A DNA stretch of 24,771 nt from a virus (Duplodnaviria > Heunggongvirae > Uroviricota > Caudoviricetes). Below, piece by piece: positions 958 to 15,208 of this stretch. The position numbers and the translations under genes were made by a program. The stretch lies in IMG/VR virus record IMGVR_UViG_2547132278_000006, one strand, 5' to 3'. The notes under the pieces were generated by a model. The model ran no database searches and had not been told where the DNA came from. It saw only the letters and a list, made by a program, of their open reading frames with translations. Position 1 is the first letter of the stretch, and each line of letters opens with the position of its first letter.

Positions 958-1602
958 CTAATGAACGGTTACTCGGCCACAGAAGCGGTTTTCTATCTTT
1001 TCTACCGCGTTATCGAGCATTCTCATTACTGATCTGGCTCTTGCTTCAACTGTGCGATACCGGTTGGAAACGACGAAGGTTTGCAGATCTCCCCTTTGCG
1101 GATGCAGGTGAATTTTTGTCAGTTCCCCGCACATCAACGCATCAATACGAGCGACATACAGACGGTCTAATGATGCTCGTTGTGACCGCAAGTAATCTCG
1201 CTCTGAGAGAGCGACCCCCGGGCGTAGGCCAGCAATGGCGTTAAAATTTGAAATAGCAGTTTTGTGGCAAAACTTTTCGATATCGAGGGCTAACTCAATA
1301 CATCGATCTTCATTGGTATGGCCGACCAAATCCAACGTGTAGGCCATAACATCAGCAGGTGTGCGATCGATAACAAAGCCTTCAACACCACGCGTAAGTA
1401 GCTCTATATGCTTTGCTATTTCCATTTGAATCTGAAGCCGCTCATATAGAGGCATAGACTCACCTACTCGAACACCGAGTCGGCTCATCAAACTTCCGAC
1501 CCCAGCATCCACGTAAGGGATTCCGTAATGTTTGTCGATATATTTTGCCAGGGTTGTTTTCCCACTGCCCTGAGCACCAGTGATCCCAATCCGGTAATCC
1601 AT
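958..1602 (-). CDS. P-loop nucleoside/nucleotide kinase-like protein (thymidylate-kinase/dNMP-kinase-like)
   Basis: Walker A ITGAQGSGKTTLAKY at the N-terminus; downstream VIDRTPADVMAYT resembles the Tmk DR(H/Y) region; sits in the nucleotide-metabolism cluster; start ATG overlaps the DHFR stop (TAATG). Confidence 0.55.
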   Translation of the reverse strand: MDYRIGITGAQGSGKTTLAKYIDKHYGIPYVDAGVGSLMSRLGVRVGESMPLYERLQIQMEIAKHIELLTRGVEGFVIDRTPADVMAYTLDLVGHTNEDRCIELALDIEKFCHKTAISNFNAIAGLRPGVALSERDYLRSQRASLDRLYVARIDALMCGELTKIHLHPQRGDLQTFVVSNRYRTVEARARSVMRMLDNAVEKIENRFCGRVTVH

Positions 1603-2078
1603 TACGACCTTCTGTATACGATCTGCGAAAAGCCAGGCTCTTCCTCGCTGGCTCGTTGGGTAAAAACTGTTTCAACAGGCACAAAGCCTAAGTTACGCAT
1701 CATGCTTGTCGGGAAGAATGCATCGGCGTTTGGTACATCAACGCCGATGTGAGAGAGCCAAATCTCTTCAACATGCGGCATGAATAGCGAGTAAATTTGT
1801 TCCCCGCCAATCACCCACACAGGCTCTGGTAATCGTAGCACATCATCCACACCAGCAGGGTAGAATCCATTTGGTACAAAGCCATGCGAGCGCGTCAAAA
1901 CGAGGTTATGACGCTCTGGAAGAGGGCGTTTGAGACTTTCCATCGTTTTACGCCCCATAACGACAGTGGCGTTTTTGGTGAGTCTCTTAAATAGCTTCAG
2001 ATCGGTAGAACAACGCCAGGGCAGTTCGTTCGCTATGCCGATCTCATAGTTACGGCCAACAGCAGCTATCATCTTCAT
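1602..2078 (-). CDS. folA: dihydrofolate reductase
   Basis: MIAAVGRNYEIGIANELPW...DLKLFKRLT...VVMGRKTMESLKRPLPERHNLVLTR...VIGGEQIY aligns by eye with the E. coli FolA motif pattern (LPW, FK, VMGRxTxES, RPLPxR, IGG); SD GAGGTGA upstream; ATGA overlap with the upstream gene. Confidence 0.85.
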   Translation of the reverse strand: MKMIAAVGRNYEIGIANELPWRCSTDLKLFKRLTKNATVVMGRKTMESLKRPLPERHNLVLTRSHGFVPNGFYPAGVDDVLRLPEPVWVIGGEQIYSLFMPHVEEIWLSHIGVDVPNADAFFPTSMMRNLGFVPVETVFTQRASEEEPGFSQIVYRRS

Positions 2079-2488
2079 ATGCTCACCTCATAGATGACCG
2101 GTCTATGATGAGAGTCAGCTAAAGCGGCACGGAGTCGAGGATCGTGCACCAGCGCAGCGATAAGCAGATCGCCTTTATGCTCCGCTAATGTGCGCTTAAT
2201 ATGCTTCTCATAACTAGTGCTATTCGGTACGAGATGAAGCCAGTCGTAATCAACACCAAAATCTTTCAGCCATCGTTTAGTGGGCGCTTCAAGAGTTTCA
2301 GAGCGGCTACTGATAAGCACCACTTCAGCCCCTGAGCGAGCAAAACCACGCAACATACGGCTGGTGGGGAAAATGAGTTCATCACCGGCAATGAATTGGC
2401 CTGCATCCGAGTCAGATACAGATTTACGATGGCTGGTATTTGCCAGCACACCTTCAATTTCGCATAAGACATACATACCTCTTGCCAT
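2075..2488 (-). CDS. hypothetical protein, possibly HAD-like hydrolase fold (putative nucleotidase) with non-canonical motif I
   Basis: Likely start is the ATG at 2488 (MARGMYVLCEIEGVL...), 2 nt after the thyA stop; the ORF track extends to 2584 but overlaps thyA. hhhhCEIEGVL resembles HAD motif I (hhhhDxDGT/V) with Glu replacing both Asp; later LISSRS and VHDP could be motifs II and IV. Function is tentative. Confidence 0.45.
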   Translation of the reverse strand: MARGMYVLCEIEGVLANTSHRKSVSDSDAGQFIAGDELIFPTSRMLRGFARSGAEVVLISSRSETLEAPTKRWLKDFGVDYDWLHLVPNSTSYEKHIKRTLAEHKGDLLIAALVHDPRLRAALADSHHRPVIYEVSI

Positions 2489-2489
2489 A

Positions 2490-3593
2490 TCACACCGCCA
2501 CTGGAACCTTGATCCACGGTAGAGGGGCATAGCCAAGAATAAGAATCTCGTCCCATTTGAAATCATCCAGCTCAGACCATTCATTAGGGAATATAACGAC
2601 CGGATCTGAATGCTCTGGAGCCTGTCGTTGCATTAGCTCACACACACCTTCCATGTGGTTGTTGTACAAATGCACGTCAAAGCCAAAATGCACAAATGCA
2701 CCGGCCATGTGACCCGTAATCTTCGCGAGAAAATGAGTGAGAATGCCATAGCCAGCAATATTGAATGGCATACCAACAAAAGTGTCTACGCTACGCTGTA
2801 CGAGGCAGGAGTTGAGGATGCGTTTGGGGATTCCAAGTTCATCCAGTTCAGTTTCAGTAACACTGCCGTCCATCTCCAGATCGTATAGCATCTTGGTGTA
2901 GATAGACTCATAACCGAGGCGACTGTGTTGAAGACCAATGTCAGTTGCCATCGTTAAACGGGTTTCAAAATCAAGCTCACGACTCCACAAAGAGAAGACA
3001 AAGTGGCAAGGTGGCAGTTTCATATCCTCAAGCTCGCCTACGTTCCATGCGTTAAGCATGATGCGACGATCGGTAGGGTTCGTGCGCAGTGTATCGACAA
3101 TACGCTGTAGCTGATCGATTTCACGGGACAGCACTACGCGATCTTCACTGATACCCAGGTATCCCTCGACTTTGTACCCGCGTAAACGGAAAGTATCGAT
3201 CTTGCTCAGATATTCACTATGGCTCACGATGCGGGTATCTTCCCATCGACGCCACTGCTTACCGTAAACCGGCCCCAAATCGCCATTCTCATCGGCCCAT
3301 GCATCCCAAATCTTAACGCCGTTATCCTTGAGAAATTGGATGTTGCCCGTGCCTTTCAGATACCACTCAAGTTCGACAAGTAGTGGCTTAAGATTTACCG
3401 CCTTTCCAGAAATAAGCGGCACAGTCCCACCAGTAAGCATGTAGTAAGAGGGAACGTAGCAGGTGCTTAAAGTACCAGTGCCTGTGCGATCATCAACCTG
3501 CACGCCGCTTTTAAGCACCGTCTCAATAACTTTTGCATACGATGCGTTTGTTACCTGACCGTTCGTATGCTCACGATTCAAAAGGAGTGACAC
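2490..3593 (-). CDS. thyA: thymidylate synthase (ThyA family), long form with insertions
   Basis: DDRTGTGT, DLGPVYGKQWRRW, RRIMLNAWNVGEL, LPPCH, QRSVDTFVGMPFNIAGY, DVHLYNNH and C-terminal IKVPVAV match ThyA catalytic motifs. The ORF track starts at a GTG at 3620; GTG at 3593 has a GAGG SD 5 nt upstream and is the more likely start. Confidence 0.85.
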   Translation of the reverse strand: MSLLLNREHTNGQVTNASYAKVIETVLKSGVQVDDRTGTGTLSTCYVPSYYMLTGGTVPLISGKAVNLKPLLVELEWYLKGTGNIQFLKDNGVKIWDAWADENGDLGPVYGKQWRRWEDTRIVSHSEYLSKIDTFRLRGYKVEGYLGISEDRVVLSREIDQLQRIVDTLRTNPTDRRIMLNAWNVGELEDMKLPPCHFVFSLWSRELDFETRLTMATDIGLQHSRLGYESIYTKMLYDLEMDGSVTETELDELGIPKRILNSCLVQRSVDTFVGMPFNIAGYGILTHFLAKITGHMAGAFVHFGFDVHLYNNHMEGVCELMQRQAPEHSDPVVIFPNEWSELDDFKWDEILILGYAPLPWIKVPVAV

Positions 3594-3670
3594 AAAAACC
3601 TCACAAAGATAAGTAATCACTTATTCATTGTGTGAGTTTACATTTATTGAGAGAACAAGACCAGATAGAT

Positions 3671-3702
3671 AAAAAAATGGTGGCCACAGGCCACCAAAAA
3701 CG
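3671..3702 (-). terminator. rho-independent terminator (bidirectional hairpin flanked by A/T runs)
   Basis: AAAAAAA-TGGTGGCC-ACAG-GGCCACCA-AAAAA; on the minus strand the 8-bp GC stem is followed by T7, 60 nt downstream of the stop of CDS 3765..4634. Confidence 0.6.
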
Positions 3703-3764: not shown

Positions 3765-4634
3765 TTATTTTTTGATCATTCCGTACATTGCTGAGGCTTT
3801 AGCTTGCTCAACAAAGGAGGATAAATCGACATCACTATAGGTTGGAGACTTCAGAATCTTTCCATCGGAAATTCGAAAACCGATCATCTTATCGGTGCCA
3901 TCAGCATGGCGAAATCCCAGGTCAGAAGAGTCGTATTTGCAGTTGGCCACAGCATGGCGACGCTCTTTGGCATCTGCAGGCCATAATTTTGTCATGTTGG
4001 ACCGATGAATTTCGCCAACCAGCTCGACGACATTGATACCGAGGAAATCAGCCAGTCGATAGGTCATCATGCACGCCACATAGATTTTGTTCATTACACG
4101 GCGCAGTTCCTGAATCAGCTCAGAATCCTTAACAGTCTTGTTCTCAAGTTTATCTGCCAGCTCTTCGAGCATACATGACGCCTCACGAGCTTCCTGAAAT
4201 GGCATTGCCATATCATCGAAAACAGTGTTACCAGGCACAAAAATTGTCTGCATAAAGCGATCAATGCTCTGTTCCTGCGTGTAATAAGTCATGCCGGTAG
4301 AAATACCACCTTTGATGGCGACCATCGTACCAACACCAACGTATAAAAAGTCGGCCATTGCATCCAGCAGTTGCTCAATATCCCCATTCATTGCGGCTGG
4401 AATACCTTCCACTACAGCTTCTTCATGAATCAGGCTTGCACGGAGACGAAGCAGCTCTGGTGTCGGCATAACGCGTCTCGGATGCTGGAAGAGTTCATGA
4501 AACTGATCGACCATCTTGTAAATACTTTCAGTGGCTACACCATGGCCTTCATGCAACTCATATGGTTCTGGCTTAAATCCAATGAGTCGATCGGTGGCAA
4601 GTTTCAGGTGGTCAGTCAGTTTGGTAAAGTTCAT
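3765..4634 (-). CDS. hypothetical protein, possibly all-alpha NTP pyrophosphohydrolase (MazG/dimeric dUTPase-like)
   Basis: 289-aa ORF between thyA and nrdB; LIHEEAVVEG...DIEQLLDAMAD loosely resembles the MazG EExxE...ExxD motif and a second helical half suggests a tandem arrangement. Function by weak motif recall only. Confidence 0.5.
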   Translation of the reverse strand: MNFTKLTDHLKLATDRLIGFKPEPYELHEGHGVATESIYKMVDQFHELFQHPRRVMPTPELLRLRASLIHEEAVVEGIPAAMNGDIEQLLDAMADFLYVGVGTMVAIKGGISTGMTYYTQEQSIDRFMQTIFVPGNTVFDDMAMPFQEAREASCMLEELADKLENKTVKDSELIQELRRVMNKIYVACMMTYRLADFLGINVVELVGEIHRSNMTKLWPADAKERRHAVANCKYDSSDLGFRHADGTDKMIGFRISDGKILKSPTYSDVDLSSFVEQAKASAMYGMIKK

Positions 4635-4711: not shown

Positions 4712-5854
4712 TTACAGGTCTGCAAACTGGCTTAGAGAAGCCTTATCCACGGTAGAATCGATCTGACCTACCAGATATGTGCTTTGCTCTGCCTCTTGTG
4801 GTGCAATTTGCAGTGTGTCGGTTAACAACCACTTGTTCATCCAGACCAGCGGATCAGTGGTAACTTCTGGAAATAAAGCCTTCAGGCCAAGACGATTCAT
4901 AGCCAGATTGGTGCGGTATTTTACATACGTTTTGAGAATATCCGCGTTTAAACCAATCATCGAACCATCTTTGAAGAGATAGTCTGCCCAGTTCATTTCT
5001 TGTTCGGCGACTGATTTCATGGTGTCGTAAATGACGTTTTCTTCATCAGCAGCAATCTCTTTCCACAATAAACCTTCGCGACCGGTACGCATGAAGCGGA
5101 TCATGCGTTCAGTTCCTTCGCAATGCAGAGCTTCATCACGGGCAATAAAGCGCATAATTTTGGTGTTACCCTCAAGCAACTTCCGTTCGCCAAAGGCAAA
5201 AGTACATGCAAAACTTACATAGAAACGGATCGCCTCAAGCGCATTAATGGACACCAATGTGCGGAAAAGCTGACGGTGCAAAGGGTATGGCTCCCAGCCA
5301 TATTCATTTACGTACAGACGCTCAAATTCCTTCTCACCTAACGACTGGCGCTCGCAGGTCATCCCATAAAGCCTGTCATATTCAGCAGAGATACTGATCG
5401 CTCGGTTGATGATTTCTTCATCCGTAACAATACCGTCAAAAACAATGCTCGGATCGTCCACCATGCCACGAATAATGTGGGTGTAGCTGCGGCTATGGAT
5501 AGTCTCAGAGAAAGACCACGTTTCAACCCACGTTTCCAGTTCAGGAATAGAGATAAGCGGCAGCAGCGTTGCATTTGGGCTACGTCCCTGAACTGAATCG
5601 AGTAACGTTTGATAACGGAGATTGCTCAGAAAAATGTGACGTTCGTGGTCCCGCAGCTTCGTGTTGAAGTCGATACGATCGCTCGAAATATCAACTTCTT
5701 CCGGCCGCCAGAAGAAAGACAATTGACGTTCAATCAACTTTTCAAAATCACGGTATTTTTGCTGATCGTAACGTGCCACGTTGACAGATTGTCCGAGGAA
5801 CATAGGCTCTTTGGTTGCATTATTAGCACCCAAACGGAACGTTGAATATGACAT
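4712..5854 (-). CDS. nrdB: ribonucleotide reductase class Ia small (beta) subunit
   Basis: Near-colinear with recalled E. coli NrdB ([88 protein letters not shown]). Confidence 0.95.
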
Positions 5855-5877
5855 GTGTTTTTCCTTTTTCTTTTTTG

Positions 5878-5955
5878 GTGCGTTTAAACAAGTTGTTATC
5901 TTATGTGTTTAAACAAGGCTTACAAATCAAAGAGAAGGTGGGGATATCCCCCACC
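5878..5955 (-). promoter_or_regulatory. nrdA-nrdB intercistronic element: two 14-bp direct repeats with a palindromic core, plus a GC-rich palindrome just after the nrdA stop
   Basis: TGCGTTTAAACAAG (5879-5892) and TGTGTTTAAACAAG (5904-5917), both containing the palindrome GTTTAAAC; GGTGGGGATATCCCCCACC at 5937-5955 lies 6 nt downstream of the nrdA stop. Confidence 0.35.
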
Positions 5956-5960
5956 ATATG

Positions 5961-8276
5961 TCAGATTTTGCAGGCTCCGTCGCACTCATCTTCTGGCTCG
6001 ACGGCTACAGCTTGCGCCAGTGGATTCTGCGGTTCGTCGTCATCACGCTTTCCTGCACCATCTCTGGTGTTGTGGTAGTAAAGCGTTTTAACTCCCATCT
6101 TGTAGGCGAGAAGCAAATCTGACAGTAGCGTCATCATTGGGACTTTATCGCCTTCAAAGCGAGAAGGGTCATAGTTGGTATTGGCCGAAATAGCCTGGTC
6201 AAAGAACTTCTGGATGATCGCCACCTTTGTCAGATAGCCGCGGTTGTCCGGCATATCCCACAGGTATTCATACTGTTCCTTCAGTTTTTCAAACTCAGGC
6301 ACGACCATCTTGACGATGCCGTCCTTAGAAGATTTCACTGACACCGGGCCACGAGGCGGTTCGATGCCGTTGGTGGAATTAGTGATCTGGCTGGAAGTCT
6401 CGCATGGCATTTGTGCCGTCAGTGTGGAGTTGCGAAGGCCGTATTTTGCAATACGTTCACGCAGTTCTTCCCACGGCATCTTTAACTCAAAGTTTGTTTC
6501 GCCACTTTCGTCTAATGAAGAACGGTAATGGTCGATCGGCAACTGACCAATTGCGTATTTGGTCTGCTCAAACCAGTCACACTCACCTTTTGCTTCGGCA
6601 AGTCGGCAGCTGGCATCAAGAAGGTAATACTGGATAGCTTCGAACGTTTCATGCACCAGTTTATTGCCAGCGGTATCAGAATAACGAACGCCATTCTTTG
6701 CCAGGTAATAAGCAAAGTTGGTTACACCAATTCCCAAGCTACGACGAGCTTTGGCAGGCACTTCGGCTGCCTCCATCGGATAGTCTTGATAATCCAGTAA
6801 CGAATCCAGTGCAGCAACGGCATAGAACGCCACCTCTTTAAGAGACTCCAGTGAACGGATGGCTCCGAGGTTAAAAGCGGATAAAGTGCATAGCGCGATC
6901 TCACCGTTCGGGTCGTCGGTAAATGCCAGTGGACGGGTGGGTAGGGTGATCTCCATACACAGGTTTGACTGGCGGACAGGTGCAAGAGCAGGAATGAAAG
7001 CGCCATGCTCATTAATATGATCGACGTTCGCAATATAAATTCGGCCCGTGGACGCTCGTTCCTGCATCAGAGATGAGAACAGCTCAATGGCAGGTACTGA
7101 CTTCTTGCGAATTGAATCATCGGCTTCGTATTTATGGTACAGCTTTTCAAACAGCTCCTGGTCTGTGAAGAAGGCTTCGTACATATCAGGCACATCATGC
7201 GGGCTGAACAGAGTGATGTTCTCGCTTCTGACGAGTCGACGGTACATTAGACGGTTACTCATGACGCCGTAATCAAGATGGCGAACGCGGTTTTCATCAA
7301 TACCACGGTTATTTTTCACCACCAGCAGACTTTCAACTTCAAGATGCCAGATCGGGTAAAACGCTGTTGCTGCGCCACCACGAACACCACCTTGCGAACA
7401 AGATTTAACAGCCGTCTGGAAATGCTTCAGGAATGGAATAACTCCGGTATGGGTGGCTTCACCATTGCGGATCTCGCTGCCCAGCGCACGGATACGGCCA
7501 AAACCAATACCAATTCCAGCACGACGTGAAACGTAGTCGATAATTGCGGCTGAAGCTGCACTAATCCCTTTCAGACTATCGCCAGACTCAATCAGCACAC
7601 AACTGGAGAACTGACGGGTTGGAGTACGGACGCCGGCCATGATTGGTGTGGGCAGAGACAGTTTGAACGTACTTGTAACGTCATAGAAACCTTTGACCAT
7701 CTCCATACGTGTTTTGCCAGCGCAGTCGTCTTCCCAATTCTGGAACAGACACATGCCTACCAGCATATAGATATGTTGCGGCCCCTCATGAATCTCACCA
7801 GTAACACGGTTTTGAACGAGGTATTTGCTTTGCAACTGCACCGTAGCTGCATAGCCAAAAAGATCGTCACGTTTCGGCTTAATGTAATTGCCGAGTTCTT
7901 CGATCTCTTCAAACGAATAATGTGTCAGCAAATCCTTGTCATAAACGCCCTTGTTAACGTTCTTGACAATGTGTTGGTAGAAGTTCGGATAGTCGTAACG
8001 ACCGAAGGCATCTTTGCGGATTTTAAAAATGTTCAGGCGGGCAGCCACCTGTGAGTAATTTGGTGCTTCTGGTGAGATCAAATCAGCGGCAGATTTAACC
8101 AAAGCCTCATGCAACTGGCTGGTGGTAATCCCATCAAAAATGCTGGCCGCAGCTCCCATTGCTACAGCGGATGCGCTTACACCACGAATGCCTTCTACGC
8201 CATACATTACGACGCGGTTGTATTTTTCTTCGGATAACGGCTCTGTTTGGCCGTTACGTTTTACGATGCTTATCAT
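5961..8276 (-). CDS. nrdA: ribonucleotide reductase class Ia large (alpha) subunit
   Basis: 771 aa; long stretches match recalled E. coli NrdA (YLVQNRVTGEI, LPTPIMAGVRTPTRQFSSCVLIE, CSQGGVRGGAAT, NRVRHLDYG, RQSNLCMEI, C-terminal ...CDGACKI). Confidence 0.95.
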   Translation of the reverse strand: MISIVKRNGQTEPLSEEKYNRVVMYGVEGIRGVSASAVAMGAAASIFDGITTSQLHEALVKSAADLISPEAPNYSQVAARLNIFKIRKDAFGRYDYPNFYQHIVKNVNKGVYDKDLLTHYSFEEIEELGNYIKPKRDDLFGYAATVQLQSKYLVQNRVTGEIHEGPQHIYMLVGMCLFQNWEDDCAGKTRMEMVKGFYDVTSTFKLSLPTPIMAGVRTPTRQFSSCVLIESGDSLKGISAASAAIIDYVSRRAGIGIGFGRIRALGSEIRNGEATHTGVIPFLKHFQTAVKSCSQGGVRGGAATAFYPIWHLEVESLLVVKNNRGIDENRVRHLDYGVMSNRLMYRRLVRSENITLFSPHDVPDMYEAFFTDQELFEKLYHKYEADDSIRKKSVPAIELFSSLMQERASTGRIYIANVDHINEHGAFIPALAPVRQSNLCMEITLPTRPLAFTDDPNGEIALCTLSAFNLGAIRSLESLKEVAFYAVAALDSLLDYQDYPMEAAEVPAKARRSLGIGVTNFAYYLAKNGVRYSDTAGNKLVHETFEAIQYYLLDASCRLAEAKGECDWFEQTKYAIGQLPIDHYRSSLDESGETNFELKMPWEELRERIAKYGLRNSTLTAQMPCETSSQITNSTNGIEPPRGPVSVKSSKDGIVKMVVPEFEKLKEQYEYLWDMPDNRGYLTKVAIIQKFFDQAISANTNYDPSRFEGDKVPMMTLLSDLLLAYKMGVKTLYYHNTRDGAGKRDDDEPQNPLAQAVAVEPEDECDGACKI

Positions 8277-13870: not shown

Positions 13871-13951
13871 TTATTCACATATCCACAGGATAGATCCTAA
13901 TAAAGAGATCCATAGATAGATCCTTATATAGATCAAATAAGATCCCCGATC
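13871..13951. promoter_or_regulatory. oriR-like origin element: tandem DnaA boxes followed by a cluster of six GATC (Dam) sites
   Basis: TTATTCACA (13871-13879) and ATATCCACA (13879-13887) are each 1 mismatch from the DnaA box TTATCCACA. GATC at 13893, 13907, 13919, 13931, 13941 and 13948, i.e. 6 sites in 59 bp within AGATCC-type repeats. Confidence 0.6.
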
Positions 13952-13991
13952 GCTGTAAGCCGCGCCACGCCTGGTCTAAAGTCATGTTCAT

Positions 13992-14093
13992 GTATGCTGT
14001 CAGCGGTAATTGATAGTCTGTCAGCGGTTCACCGTATGCTGCCAACTGTTTTTGGTATTCTGTCAGCGGCAAATCAAGTATGCTGTCAGCGGT
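13992..14093 (+). repeat. origin iterons: 5 direct repeats of a 16-bp unit (GTATGCTGTCAGCGGT) at 21-23 bp spacing
   Basis: Units start at 13992 (perfect), 14013, 14034 (degenerate), 14055 and 14078 (perfect); phased at about 2 helical turns; they end 20 bp before the repA ATG, so they overlap the repA promoter region. Confidence 0.8.
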
Positions 14094-14113
14094 TGAATGA
14101 CAAAGGTGTCCAC

Positions 14114-15208
14114 ATGTCCACAAAAAATAAAAAAGGTAAAAATAACAAAGAAGTAGAAGATAACATCGACAACTTTGAAGAAGGTTCCCTTGAATTGTAC
14201 ACAGGGGAACTTGTCCCTAATAGCAACAATACAGTCCAACCAATTGCGTTGATGCGACTGGGGTTGTTCGTCCCCACGCTTAAGGGAACAAAATACAGTA
14301 AACGTAACAAGCCAAATGAGATCGATGCTTCAAAGGAGCTTGTCCAGCTCGAAGTAGCCCGTTCTGAAGGCTATTCCGATATCAAGATAACCGGTCCTCG
14401 TCTCGACATGGATCATGATTTCAAAACGTGGGTGGGCGTTGTGCGTTCGCTGGCAGAATACGGCGAACCTAACGGTCGTGTCGAGTTAAGCATCACGAAA
14501 TTTGCTAAGTTTTGTGGCTATCCATCGTCACAGATCCGCAAAACACTCCGCGACCGGCTTACAAACAGTCTTTTGAAGATCATGCGTACAACTCTGTCTT
14601 TCCAGAGAACGTATGAAGAAAAGAACGTCGACGGCTCTAACAAGATCTCGCTTCTGATGGTGCACCTCATCAATAGCGTGGACTACAACGAGCAGAAAGA
14701 TACGGTGGTGTTCTATGCAGAACCGAAGCTGGCCGAACTATATCGCTTTGACCATAAGGTTCTTTTGCAGTTAAAGGTTATCAATAAGCTACCACGCAAA
14801 GAAACAGCACAGGCTCTGTACACCTTCATCGAAAGTCTTCCAACCAAGCCTGCGCCGGTATCGCTTGCTCGATTGCGTGCGCGACTCAATTTGAGTAGCA
14901 GGAATGTAAGCTCGCAGAATCAGACTATACGTAACGGCTTAAAAGCTCTCCAAGATTTGGGCTATCTCGAATACAGCGAGATTAAGCGAGGGCGGTCGAT
15001 CTATATCCAGATTCACAGCCGTAATCCAAAACTTAAAGTCGCACCGCCAAAACCTGAAGACATCGAACCCAAAAAACCAGATGAGAAAGCCGGGGAAATT
15101 GATGCTAAACAGAACATTATCAACAAGATAACTGAACTTTCGCAGAATTTGACGCCTGAAAATATCAAGATGATTGAGATCCTTTCCAATAGTCTCAAAC
15201 TGCTTTGA
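14114..15208 (+). CDS. repA: iteron-binding replication initiator (RepA-like), 365 aa
   Basis: The only substantial plus-strand gene; flanked upstream by 5 iterons and downstream by 12. Start taken at ATG 14114 (MSTKNKKGK...); the ORF track's 5' extension to 13994 runs through the iterons. Assignment is mainly contextual (P1/F-type organisation). Confidence 0.7.
   Translation: MSTKNKKGKNNKEVEDNIDNFEEGSLELYTGELVPNSNNTVQPIALMRLGLFVPTLKGTKYSKRNKPNEIDASKELVQLEVARSEGYSDIKITGPRLDMDHDFKTWVGVVRSLAEYGEPNGRVELSITKFAKFCGYPSSQIRKTLRDRLTNSLLKIMRTTLSFQRTYEEKNVDGSNKISLLMVHLINSVDYNEQKDTVVFYAEPKLAELYRFDHKVLLQLKVINKLPRKETAQALYTFIESLPTKPAPVSLARLRARLNLSSRNVSSQNQTIRNGLKALQDLGYLEYSEIKRGRSIYIQIHSRNPKLKVAPPKPEDIEPKKPDEKAGEIDAKQNIINKITELSQNLTPENIKMIEILSNSLKLL

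What the first reader, a model, noticed from the sequence alone, without database searches (positions are those of the whole stretch)
2490..3593. Thymidylate synthase homologue with an N-terminal extension and two internal insertions
Seen in sequence: all canonical ThyA motifs are present, including the Asn of PFNIAGY that selects dUMP. Compared with recalled E. coli ThyA there is an insertion of about 34 aa after GKQWRRW and about 51 aa between LPPCH and QRSVD, giving about 367 aa against 264. Established knowledge: ThyA-fold enzymes in phages also include dUMP and dCMP hydroxymethylases that build modified bases. Inference: probably a true ThyA, but the insertions near the active site leave open altered chemistry or partner binding.
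Basis: partly seen in the sequence, partly recalled or inferred. Interest (0 to 1): 0.4.

Follow-up and report, generated by a model that had tools for sequence, protein, structure and literature searches.

The report
Phage-plasmid thymidylate synthase with conserved inserts
This is an ordinary, already annotated thymidylate synthase (ThyA) gene of an SSU5-like phage-plasmid; its two extra segments are conserved surface additions shared with many phage enzymes (one also with a solved Burkholderia enzyme), not signs of new chemistry.

Summary
A 367-aa ThyA is encoded on the minus strand at 2490-3593. Against E. coli ThyA it has a 15-aa N-terminal extension, a 34-aa insert after residue ~105 and a 51-aa insert in the 153-159 hairpin.

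The window is an SSU5-like phage-plasmid, 98-99% identical to Escherichia phages CMS-2020a, Cyrano and PhiR41_1. The gene is already annotated as thymidylate synthase there and on 724 PLSDB plasmids.

All residues that define a dUMP-methylating ThyA are present, including Trp80, Tyr94, Cys146/His147, Asn177 and the C-terminal tail. T4 dCMP hydroxymethylase and SPO1 dUMP hydroxymethylase lack most of them. The gene is translationally coupled to a DHFR 89% identical to the experimentally active DfrA51.

The AlphaFold model (pLDDT 94.7) superposes on E. coli ThyA (TM 0.94). Both inserts fold confidently as add-on modules.
- Insert 1 has a same-length counterpart in the solved Burkholderia thailandensis ThyA (3V8H).
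- Insert 2 has no solved counterpart, but recurs in jumbo-phage ThyAs and in 119 of the 150 best cluster representatives.
- Both are under purifying selection.

Verdict: a true ThyA. Altered chemistry is very unlikely, and the role of the inserts is untested. Low interest.

The parts
2490..3593 (-). thyA coding sequence: 367 aa plus a TGA stop at 2490-2492, with a GTG start at 3591-3593
   Evidence: ORF list. PF00303 E=4.5e-78. TIGR03284 is above its cut-off. The same start is annotated in PhiR41_1 and SSU5.
3599..3602 (-). GAGG Shine-Dalgarno sequence, 5 nt upstream of the GTG start
   Evidence: Read directly from the sequence.
3678..3696 (-). Intrinsic-terminator-like hairpin plus T-run between the MazG-like gene and thyA
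   Evidence: Consensus scan: 8-bp stem with 6 GC pairs, followed by TTTTTTT. It is a pattern match only.
3549..3593 (-). N-terminal extension (residues 1-15): variable and fast-evolving; residues 1-6 are predicted disordered, and helix A starts at residue 11
   Evidence: pN is 0.206 against 0.065 for the core.
3126..3239 (-). Insert 1 (residues 119-156; site B, after E. coli residue ~105): a small beta-meander with two short helices and a conserved RGY motif
2814..2984 (-). Insert 2 (residues 204-260; site C, in the Ec153-159 hairpin): a three-helix acidic module with the motifs S-R-E-L-x4-R(212) and L-D-x3-I-P(256)-x-R-x-L
   Evidence: Model helices 209-225, 231-242 and 247-253. No counterpart in any solved TS. 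Shared with jumbo-phage TS.
3006..3008 (-). Codon of the catalytic Cys196 (= E. coli Cys146) in LPPCH
   Evidence: Invariant column in alignments A1 and A2.
2760..2762 (-). Codon of Asn278 (= E. coli Asn177), the dUMP-selecting residue
   Evidence: Invariant column. The role of position 177 is described in PMC8670742 and PMC6400193.
2493..2513 (-). C-terminal tail IKVPVAV (= E. coli I258-I264), which closes the folate site for hydride transfer
   Evidence: The role of the tail is described in PMC6400193.
2075..2488 (-). HAD/PNKP-phosphatase-like gene (137 aa). Its ATG lies 1 nt after the thyA stop (TGAtATG), so it is translationally coupled.
   Evidence: The same gene is found in SSU5, PhiR41_1 and L010/L011.
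1602..2078 (-). Dihydrofolate reductase (158 aa), 89% identical to SSU5 DfrA51. Its start overlaps the HAD-like gene's stop (ATGA).
   Evidence: PF00186 E=3e-34.. dfrA51 has been shown to confer trimethoprim resistance (PMC12217456).
958..1602 (-). P-loop nucleotide-kinase-like gene (AAA_28; weak matches to thymidylate and dCMP kinase families). Its start overlaps the DHFR stop.
3765..4634 (-). MazG/PRA-PH-like nucleotide pyrophosphohydrolase, upstream of thyA
   Evidence: PF01503 E=1.3e-8. phrog_671.
4712..8276 (-). Class Ia ribonucleotide reductase genes: nrdB (4712-5854) and nrdA (5961-8276)
   Evidence: PF00268. Annotation of the syntenic genes in PhiR41_1 and SSU5.

Best explanation
The gene encodes a catalytically canonical, folate-dependent thymidylate synthase (ThyA). 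It converts dUMP and 5,10-methylene-THF to dTMP and dihydrofolate. It belongs to the nucleotide-supply module of an SSU5-like phage-plasmid, with the gene order NrdA, NrdB, MazG-like, ThyA, HAD-like, DHFR, kinase-like. ThyA is translationally coupled to a DHFR that regenerates tetrahydrofolate.

Shown here: family membership, a complete catalytic residue set, the ThyA fold and the operon context.

The two internal insertions are folded add-on modules at two recurrent insertion hot spots of the ThyA fold.
- Insert 1 is a small beta/alpha module in the Ec101-108 loop. A same-length counterpart exists in the solved Burkholderia thailandensis ThyA.
- Insert 2 is an acidic three-helix module at the tip of the hairpin formed by the strand that follows the catalytic Cys.

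Inferred, not shown: the inserts do not change the chemistry. Insert 2 emerges right after Trp203, the equivalent of human Tyr202, which lies on the perimeter of the dimer interface. It therefore most likely buttresses the obligate dimer and/or offers a docking surface for other phage nucleotide-metabolism proteins. The N-terminal extension is a variable, partly disordered lengthening of helix A with no evident role.
For: - Family: PF00303 scores E=4.5e-78. The TIGR03284 equivalog scores 218.5 bits against a cut-off of 108.35. phrog_160 'thymidylate synthase' scores E=2.5e-94 over residues 2-367.
- Catalytic residues: alignments of 54 and 31 sequences have invariant columns at R36, E74, W96, W99, Y110, R176/R177, C196, H197, R267, S268, D270, N278, H308 and Y310. 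These correspond to E. coli R21, E58, W80, W83, Y94, R126/127, C146, H147, R166, S167, D169, N177, H207 and Y209. The C-terminal tail is IKVPVAV.
- Hydroxymethylases: T4 gp42 and SPO1 gp29 differ at the DRTGTGT, IWDEWAD, GDLGPVYG, PPCH and PFNIA motifs and lack the tail. They share 24.5% and 20.7% identity with the query, against 44.7% for E. coli ThyA.
- Literature: the tail seals the site for hydride transfer, dCH lacks it, Asp179 selects dCMP, and positions 147/177 separate modified from unmodified contigs (PMC6400193; PMC8670742).
- DHFR coupling: the stop and start codons of thyA, the HAD-like gene, DHFR and the kinase-like gene are adjacent or overlapping. The DHFR is 89% identical to DfrA51, which is functional in E. 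coli.
- The inserts are ordinary for this clade. They are present in all SSU5-like homologues and in the ThyAs of jumbo phages of Erwinia, Salmonella and Cronobacter. BFVD models of the 201phi2-1 and Yoloswag TS match with TMq 0.79-0.87, against 0.68 for insert-less TS. Of the 150 best 50%-identity representatives, 95 have both inserts and 119 have insert 2, and all keep the catalytic residues. 3V8H carries insert 1.
- Selection: pN between the window and SSU5 is 0.046 for insert 1, 0.117 for insert 2 and 0.065 for the core, with pS between 0.57 and 0.86.
- Position of insert 2: human Y202 is on the interface perimeter and packs on F59'/K47' of the partner subunit (PMC9831607).
Against: - No enzymatic or genetic test exists for this protein or any insert-2-bearing homologue that I could find.
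- I had no model coordinates and no dimer model. The position of insert 2 relative to the partner subunit, and to the partner's dUMP site (fed by Arg176/177 from the same end of the sheet), is inferred from secondary structure and published descriptions, not measured.
- Insert 2 has an invariant Arg212 and a Pro256-x-Arg258 motif whose role is unexplained.
- The upstream MazG-like, the HAD-like and the kinase-like genes also occur in base-modification pathways, so context alone does not exclude a modified nucleotide pool.
Confidence: 0.88

Rival explanations
1. Partner-docking ThyA. The enzyme is a normal ThyA, but the conserved inserts, especially the acidic three-helix insert 2, exist to bind other phage proteins. 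Candidates are DHFR, the HAD-like protein, the kinase-like protein and RNR. This would assemble a dNTP-synthesising complex or channel folates, as proposed long ago for the surface inserts of T4 thymidylate synthase. That T4 proposal is recalled from established knowledge and was not checked here.
For: - The inserts are under purifying selection.
- Arg212 and Pro256 are invariant within insert 2 across 31 divergent sequences.
- Insert 2 is mostly net acidic.
- The insert-bearing contigs whose context I examined are from phages or phage-plasmids that also encode other nucleotide-metabolism genes, such as DHFR or a PRA-PH-like protein.
- There is tight translational coupling with the HAD-like, DHFR and kinase-like genes.
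Against: - No interaction data exist.
- The sequence of the inserts is much less conserved than the core: 14-44% against 33-63% identity to the query in distant homologues. This fits a structural decoration as well as it fits a specific interface.
- Insert 1 also occurs in a cellular ThyA (3V8H) that has no phage partners.
- The two inserts occur independently of each other in many clusters.
Confidence: 0.25
2. Altered chemistry. The protein is a ThyA-fold pyrimidine hydroxymethylase or dCMP methylase that makes a modified base for the element's DNA.
For: ThyA-fold hydroxymethylases exist in phages. MazG-like, HAD-like and kinase-like neighbours are also typical of modification pathways.
Against: - Asn278 and His197 are present, not Asp or another residue.
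- Trp96, Trp99 and Tyr110 and the full C-terminal tail are retained. The tail is required for sealed hydride transfer (per PMC6400193; the Trp/Tyr roles are recalled from established knowledge), and T4 gp42 and SPO1 gp29 lack it and most of these motifs.
- Identity is 45% to E. coli ThyA but only 21-25% to the hydroxymethylases.
- An active DHFR is co-translated. It is needed only if dihydrofolate is produced.
Confidence: 0.03
3. Decayed or non-catalytic ThyA homologue kept for another role, such as RNA binding or a structural function. The inserts would disrupt the enzyme.
For: Two large insertions fall between catalytic motifs in the linear sequence.
Against: - Every catalytic residue is invariant across the clade.
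- Core pN is 0.065 against pS of about 0.77.
- The model keeps the ThyA core at TM 0.94.
- The gene is intact in 721 of 724 plasmid records.
Confidence: 0.02

Closest known systems
E. coli ThyA (264 aa; PDB 2TSC, 1TYS and others), the canonical bacterial thymidylate synthase
   Same: The fold matches (TM 0.94 normalised to E. coli). Identity over the 264 aligned residues is 44.7%. All catalytic and ligand-binding residues and the C-terminal tail are shared.
   Different: The query has a 15-aa N-terminal extension, a 34-aa insert after Ec105 and a 51-aa insert in the Ec153-159 hairpin.
SSU5_081 and the ThyA of SSU5-like phage-plasmids (Salmonella phage SSU5; Escherichia phages Cyrano, CMS-2020a and PhiR41_1; Klebsiella ST13-OXA48phi12.3)
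   Same: It is the same gene: 86-99% protein identity, the same length, the same inserts and the same gene order. 724 PLSDB plasmids carry it, annotated as thymidylate synthase.
   Different: Nothing of substance. The Cyrano record mislabels it 'ThyX'.
ThyA of jumbo phages: SPN3US gp037, Erwinia phages Machina, Wellington and Yoloswag, Cronobacter phage CR5 and Pseudomonas phage 201phi2-1
   Same: Insertions fall at the same two sites and share the motifs (S/T)-(R/E)-E-(L/M)-x4-R and L-D-x3-(I/V)-P-x-R-x-L. The predicted structures match over the inserts, with TMq 0.79-0.87. An insert-2-only HMM from the SSU5 clade recovers 11 of 16 distant insert-bearing homologues (mostly metagenomic; two checked sit on jumbo-phage-like contigs) above all 960 shuffled decoys.
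   Different: Overall identity is only 37-41%. Insert lengths differ. The SPN3US core is 76% identical to E. coli ThyA, against 45% for the query. Some, such as 201phi2-1 (457 aa), carry much larger inserts.
Burkholderia thailandensis ThyA (PDB 3V8H; NCBIfam NF010393/PRK13821 type, ~323 aa)
Lineage-specific inserts of other solved TS enzymes: human TS inserts at 117-128 and 146-153, the Lactobacillus casei 50-aa insert, and the T4 Td inserts (recalled from established knowledge)
   Same: The principle is the same: surface insertions in a conserved ThyA core. The human 8-aa insert lies at the same site as insert 1 (alignment, using a human sequence recalled from memory).
   Different: These inserts are shorter, or they lie at the Ec83-87 site (L. 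casei type, 'site A'). None occupies the Ec153-159 hairpin.
T4 gp42 dCMP hydroxymethylase and SPO1 gp29 dUMP hydroxymethylase
   Same: They share the ThyA superfamily fold, the catalytic Cys and the use of methylene-THF.
   Different: They lack the ThyA C-terminal tail, differ at the Trp80/Trp83 motif (gp42 keeps only the first Trp) and at PFNIA, and gp42 has Asp at position 177. They produce THF rather than DHF. Identity to the query is 21-25%.

Membership tests
Thymidylate synthase ThyA (EC 2.1.1.45; Pfam PF00303, TIGR03284) | The sequence matches the family models above their curated cut-offs. | tested here: met
   PF00303 scores 262.5 bits against 24.3. TIGR03284 scores 218.5 bits against 108.35.
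Thymidylate synthase ThyA (EC 2.1.1.45; Pfam PF00303, TIGR03284) | Catalytic nucleophile Cys in P-C-H, plus the dUMP-phosphate arginines (Ec R21, R166, R126', R127'). | tested here: met
   C196/H197, R36, R267 and R176/R177 are invariant columns.
Thymidylate synthase ThyA (EC 2.1.1.45; Pfam PF00303, TIGR03284) | Uracil selection by Asn177, with His147. | tested here: met
   N278 and H197 are present. Their significance is described in PMC8670742 and PMC6400193.
Thymidylate synthase ThyA (EC 2.1.1.45; Pfam PF00303, TIGR03284) | Hydride-transfer apparatus: Glu58, Trp80/Trp83, Tyr94, and the C-terminal tail that seals the folate site. | tested here: met
   E74, W96/W99, Y110 and the tail I361-V367 (IKVPVAV) are present. 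The role of the tail is described.
Thymidylate synthase ThyA (EC 2.1.1.45; Pfam PF00303, TIGR03284) | The ThyA fold. | tested here: met
Thymidylate synthase ThyA (EC 2.1.1.45; Pfam PF00303, TIGR03284) | Obligate homodimer with shared active sites. | not testable with these tools
   Only a monomer model without coordinates was available. The interface residues R176/R177 are conserved.
Thymidylate synthase ThyA (EC 2.1.1.45; Pfam PF00303, TIGR03284) | Catalysis of dUMP to dTMP with DHF as the by-product, or complementation of a thyA mutant. | not testable with these tools
   This needs an experiment. Indirect support comes from the co-translated DHFR, 89% identical to the functional DfrA51.
dCMP hydroxymethylase (T4 gp42 type) | Asp at the Asn177 position, and absence of the ThyA C-terminal tail. 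| tested here: not met
   The query has Asn278 and a full tail. Identity to gp42 is 24.5%.
dUMP hydroxymethylase (SPO1 gp29 type) | Close similarity to the gp29 lineage, loss of the ThyA folate-sealing motifs and tail, and no DHF produced. | tested here: not met
   Identity is 20.7%. gp29 lacks IWDEWAD, PFNIA and the IKxPVAV tail, all of which the query keeps. The defining residues of this family are less well established than those of dCH.
Burkholderia-type long ThyA (NCBIfam NF010393 / PRK13821; PDB 3V8H) | A score above the family cut-off. | tested here: not met
   The score is 135.4 bits against a cut-off of 576. Only insert 1 is shared.
Double-insert phage ThyA clade (informal: SSU5-like phage-plasmids plus jumbo phages) | Insertions at both Ec~101-108 and Ec~153-158, with insert-2 motifs S/T-R/E-E-L/M-x4-R and L-D-x3-I/V-P-x-R-x-L. 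| tested here: met
.

The most novel reading that the evidence does not exclude
Insert 2 is a three-helix, mostly acidic module with an invariant Arg and a Pro-x-Arg motif. It is grafted onto the hairpin tip that lies at the dimer-interface perimeter, at the same end of the sheet as the Arg176/Arg177 pair that reaches into the partner's dUMP site. On this reading it is a dedicated functional module of phage ThyAs. It would either be a docking platform that assembles a phage dNTP-synthesis complex (with DHFR, RNR or the kinase), or an allosteric lid acting on the partner subunit's active site. That would explain why it is retained in more than 100 divergent, apparently mostly phage-borne ThyA clusters while being absent from every solved ThyA.
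Probability: 0.2. Interest if true: 0.5.

Novelty: already known. Interest (0 to 1): 0.2.

Why it matters
Practically, it matters little. The gene is a routinely annotated thymidylate synthase, present on hundreds of SSU5-like phage-plasmids of Escherichia, Klebsiella, Salmonella and Enterobacter. There is no sign of modified-base chemistry.

Two modest points of interest remain.
- With its trimethoprim-insensitive DfrA51-like DHFR partner, it gives these widespread clinical phage-plasmids their own thymidylate cycle. That is relevant to antifolate susceptibility.
- The helical insert in the Ec153-159 hairpin marks a large family of ThyAs, found here in phages and phage-plasmids, with no solved structure and no tested function. 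A simple deletion and complementation study could show whether phage ThyAs use it for dimer stability or for assembling nucleotide-synthesis complexes.

Tried and rejected
- **AFDB search.** The afdb50 Foldseek library was not available.
- **Solved counterparts of the inserts by sequence.** Fragment queries of insert 2 with flanks, and of insert 1 alone, found nothing meaningful in PDB sequences. Only flank-anchored fragments recovered 3V8H.
- **GTDB genome scan.** The insert-2 fragment alignment (A3) was too variable to search with. It therefore says nothing firm about whether double-insert ThyAs occur in cellular chromosomes.
- **Shared MazG-like partner.** The window's protein shows no detectable similarity to the SPN3US MazG or to a candidate in L006. 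Rejected.
- **Inserts as recently acquired foreign DNA.** GC content is 0.50 for insert 1, 0.46 for insert 2 and 0.49 for the core, so there is no anomaly.
- **Very large site-A and site-B inserts in metagenomic phage ThyAs.** The 200-270-aa inserts have no Pfam domain.
- **Literature.** Searches for any description of these inserts in SSU5-like or jumbo-phage ThyA found none. Absence from this library is not proof that no description exists.
- **Other scans.** tRNA and Rfam scans of the window were empty.
- **Second structure job.** I did not run it on excised inserts. The tool returns no coordinates, and a 50-aa helical module would give only unspecific fold matches.
Full report
**1. Observation**

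The finding's coordinates hold an ORF on the minus strand. It starts with GTG at 3593, preceded by GAGG 5 nt upstream, and ends with TGA at 2490-2492, giving 367 aa. An alternative GTG at 3620 would give 376 aa, but it has no ribosome-binding site. The annotated start in close relatives is the 3593 one.

The protein matches Pfam PF00303 at E=4.5e-78. It passes the curated cut-off of the NCBIfam thymidylate synthase equivalog TIGR03284.

phmmer against PDB sequences breaks the match to E. coli ThyA into three blocks: q18-118/Ec3-102, q157-203/Ec107-153 and q261-367/Ec160-264. A multiple alignment gives 15 extra N-terminal residues, 34 after Ec105 and 51 after Ec158. Only the strand was left unstated.

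**2. What the element is**

The window is 99% identical over this gene to Escherichia phage CMS-2020a, 98% to Cyrano and PhiR41_1, and 77.5% to Salmonella phage SSU5. Across its full length it is collinear with these SSU5-like phage-plasmids.

All of the following genes are on the minus strand:
- nrdA and nrdB
- a MazG/PRA-PH-like pyrophosphohydrolase
- a terminator-like hairpin
- thyA
- a HAD/PNKP-phosphatase-like gene
- DHFR
- a P-loop kinase-like gene

The last four are translationally coupled. The thyA stop and the next start form TGAtATG, and the other junctions are overlapping ATGA-type junctions.

The DHFR is 89% identical to SSU5 DfrA51. DfrA51 has been expressed in E. coli and confers trimethoprim resistance, and the purified protein bound trimethoprim more weakly than E. 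coli DHFR (PMC12217456).

The same long ThyA is found on 724 PLSDB plasmids. Most are non-mobilizable, and those listed are mostly about 105-115 kb. They come from Klebsiella, Escherichia, Enterobacter, Salmonella, Citrobacter and Cronobacter, and the records inspected are annotated 'thymidylate synthase'.

**3. Is it a true ThyA?**

In alignments of 54 and 31 homologues, the invariant columns include every residue of the ThyA mechanism:

| Query residue | E. coli residue |
|---|---|
| R36 | R21 |
| E74 | E58 |
| W96 / W99 | W80 / W83 |
| Y110 | Y94 |
| R176 / R177 | R126 / R127 |
| C196 / H197 | C146 / H147 |
| R267, S268, D270 | R166, S167, D169 |
| N278 | N177 |
| H308 / Y310 | H207 / Y209 |

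The protein ends in IKVPVAV, the ThyA C-terminal tail.

I fetched T4 gp42 (dCMP hydroxymethylase) and SPO1 gp29 (dUMP hydroxymethylase) and aligned them. Both diverge at DRTGTGT, IWDEWAD, GDLGPVYG, PPCH and PFNIA, and both lack the tail. Their identity to the query is 24.5% and 20.7%, against 44.7% for E. coli ThyA.

The literature supports these discriminators:
- The tail seals the site for hydride transfer and is missing in dCH.
- Asp179 selects dCMP.
- ThyA yields DHF, whereas the hydroxymethylase yields THF (PMC6400193).
- Positions 147 and 177 separate modification-associated homologues from ordinary ones in metagenomes (PMC8670742).

A co-translated, active DHFR makes sense only for a DHF-producing enzyme.

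**4. What the inserts are**

Both fold with pLDDT above 90.

*Insert 1 (residues 119-156).* It extends the loop after Trp117 into a three-stranded meander with two short helices.
- Its site is the one where human TS carries an 8-residue insert. This rests on the alignment, which used a human sequence recalled from memory.
- The solved Burkholderia thailandensis ThyA (3V8H) has a same-length insertion there. It aligns continuously, with a single gap on each side, and shares RG(Y/F)(K/R)(V/I) and (R/K)V(V/L)L.
- Insert 1 therefore occurs in a solved cellular ThyA.

*Insert 2 (residues 204-260).* It consists of three helices on an elongated hairpin. The catalytic Cys196 precedes the 10-residue outgoing strand, and Arg267 closes the 13-residue return strand. 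The module is therefore about ten strand residues away from its own active site.
- It begins right after Trp203, the equivalent of human Tyr202. Published structures place that residue on the perimeter of the monomer-monomer interface, packing on F59'/K47' of the partner (PMC9831607).
- From the strand topology I infer that this end of the sheet is also where Arg176/177 leave to reach the partner's dUMP site. Insert 2 may therefore lie near the partner subunit. I could not measure this, because the tool returns no coordinates and models only one chain.
- No solved TS has anything at this site.

**5. Distribution of the inserts**

Both inserts are present in all full-length members of the SSU5-like clade, which spans Salmonella, Klebsiella, Raoultella, Enterobacter, Providencia, Morganella and Xenorhabdus, down to about 46% identity.

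The next relatives in the phage collection share 37-41% identity. They are ThyAs of jumbo phages of Erwinia, Salmonella, Cronobacter and Proteus, such as SPN3US, Machina, Wellington and CR5. They have inserts at the same two sites, with the shared motifs (S/T)(R/E)E(L/M)-x4-R and LD-x3-(I/V)P-x-R-x-L.

BFVD models of the 201phi2-1 and Yoloswag ThyAs match the query with TMq 0.79-0.87. Insert-less ThyAs reach only 0.68, so the inserts are structurally equivalent.

An HMM built only from the SSU5-clade insert 2 finds insert 2 of 11 of 16 distant insert-bearing proteins above all 960 shuffled decoys. For insert 1 the figure is 3 of 16.

A profile search of 1.84 billion cluster representatives gave 7222 hits at E<1e-30. 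Among the best 150:
- 95 have both inserts and 119 have insert 2.
- A third hot spot, Ec77-92, is also common.
- All keep E58, W80, Y94, C146, R166, D169, H207 and Y209, and 149 keep N177.

The contexts I inspected were two jumbo-phage-like contigs, one T4-like contig and another SSU5-like module.

Insertions at these loops are thus a common, conservative way in which ThyAs vary.

**6. Constraint on the inserts**

Between the window and SSU5, non-synonymous divergence (pN) is as follows, against synonymous divergence (pS) of 0.52-0.86:

| Region | pN |
|---|---|
| Insert 1 | 0.046 |
| Core | 0.065 |
| Insert 2 | 0.117 |
| N-terminal extension | 0.206 |

Both inserts are therefore under purifying selection and are functional parts of the protein. 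Over longer distances they diverge faster than the core, as surface modules do.

The N-terminal extension varies from 0 to 21 aa across the clade. It is partly disordered and evolves fastest, so I see no evidence of a role for it.

**7. Mechanism**

Shown: a complete, conserved ThyA catalytic machinery in a ThyA fold, encoded in an operon with an active DHFR inside a ribonucleotide reductase and nucleotide-metabolism module.

Inferred: the enzyme makes dTMP and DHF, and the DHFR recycles the folate. The module supplies dTTP for replication of the phage-plasmid.

Inferred with less confidence: the inserts are structural elaborations. Insert 2 would buttress the dimer or act as a docking surface. 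An insert-dependent partner interaction is a live alternative, which I put at about 0.25. It is compatible with the main explanation.

**8. Novelty and verdict**

The gene is already in GenBank under the correct name, and it is nearly identical in many records. ThyAs with lineage-specific surface inserts are well known, for example in human, L. casei, T4 and Burkholderia.

What is not described, as far as my limited searches show, is the helical insert in the Ec153-159 hairpin that marks a large family of ThyAs seen here in phages and phage-plasmids. That is a modest structural curiosity rather than a new kind of system. Interest is 0.2.

Noticed in passing
window 1602-2078 (-): The DHFR gene next to thyA is 89% identical to SSU5 DfrA51. 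DfrA51 is a phage-plasmid DHFR shown experimentally to confer trimethoprim resistance in E. coli (PMC12217456). This element therefore probably carries a dfrA51-type resistance determinant.
   Followed up: partly
window 958-3593 (-): thyA, the HAD-like gene, DHFR and the P-loop kinase-like gene are translationally coupled: TGAtATG at 2486-2492, and ATGA-type overlaps at 2075-2078 and at 1602. The 137-aa HAD/PNKP-phosphatase-like protein (phrog_5387) has no assigned function, but it is conserved at this position in SSU5, PhiR41_1 and a more distant module (L010/L011).
   Followed up: partly
window 13881-14093 and 13994-15208 (+): Two tandem-repeat arrays (a 26-nt unit x2, and a 42-nt unit x2.5 containing TGTCAGCGG) lie at and just upstream of the start of a Rep3_N-type replication initiator gene. 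They are probably the iterons and origin of the plasmid replicon.
   Followed up: partly
public record OV696614.1 (Escherichia phage Cyrano), gene matching window 2490-3593: The record annotates this gene as 'ThyX Thymidylate synthase'. The protein is a ThyA (PF00303), not the flavin-dependent ThyX.
   Followed up: yes
L003:5046-6062 (Salmonella phage SPN3US gp037): The core of the SPN3US ThyA is 76% identical to E. coli ThyA, yet it carries both inserts. The window's ThyA core is only 45% identical to E. coli and 42% to SPN3US. This suggests mosaic evolution, either by host-gene capture or conversion with retention of the inserts, or by very unequal rates. It is unexplained.
   Followed up: partly
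proteins P0125, P0136, P0156 (572-579 aa) and P0134 (549 aa); L012:6001-7740: Some metagenomic ThyAs carry insertions of 200-270 aa at the Ec83-87 or Ec99-108 sites. None has a Pfam match. The one whose context I looked up, P0125, sits on a T4-like 137-kb contig. These are whole uncharacterised domains nested inside ThyA.
   Followed up: partly
L011 (CP071326.1, 2.03-Mb record, 804763-817824): A 353-aa double-insert ThyA sits in the same NrdA-NrdB-PRA-PH-ThyA-HAD-DHFR-AAA_28 order inside a 2-Mb replicon of an NCBI genome. An SSU5-like nucleotide module therefore also exists integrated in, or as part of, a large replicon. The organism was not identified.
   Followed up: no
window 3765-4634 (-): The 289-aa MazG/PRA-PH-like protein upstream of thyA matches the Pfam domain only over residues 42-106. 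It shows no pairwise similarity to the MazG of SPN3US. Its substrate (dUTP, dCTP or other) is unknown.
   Followed up: partly
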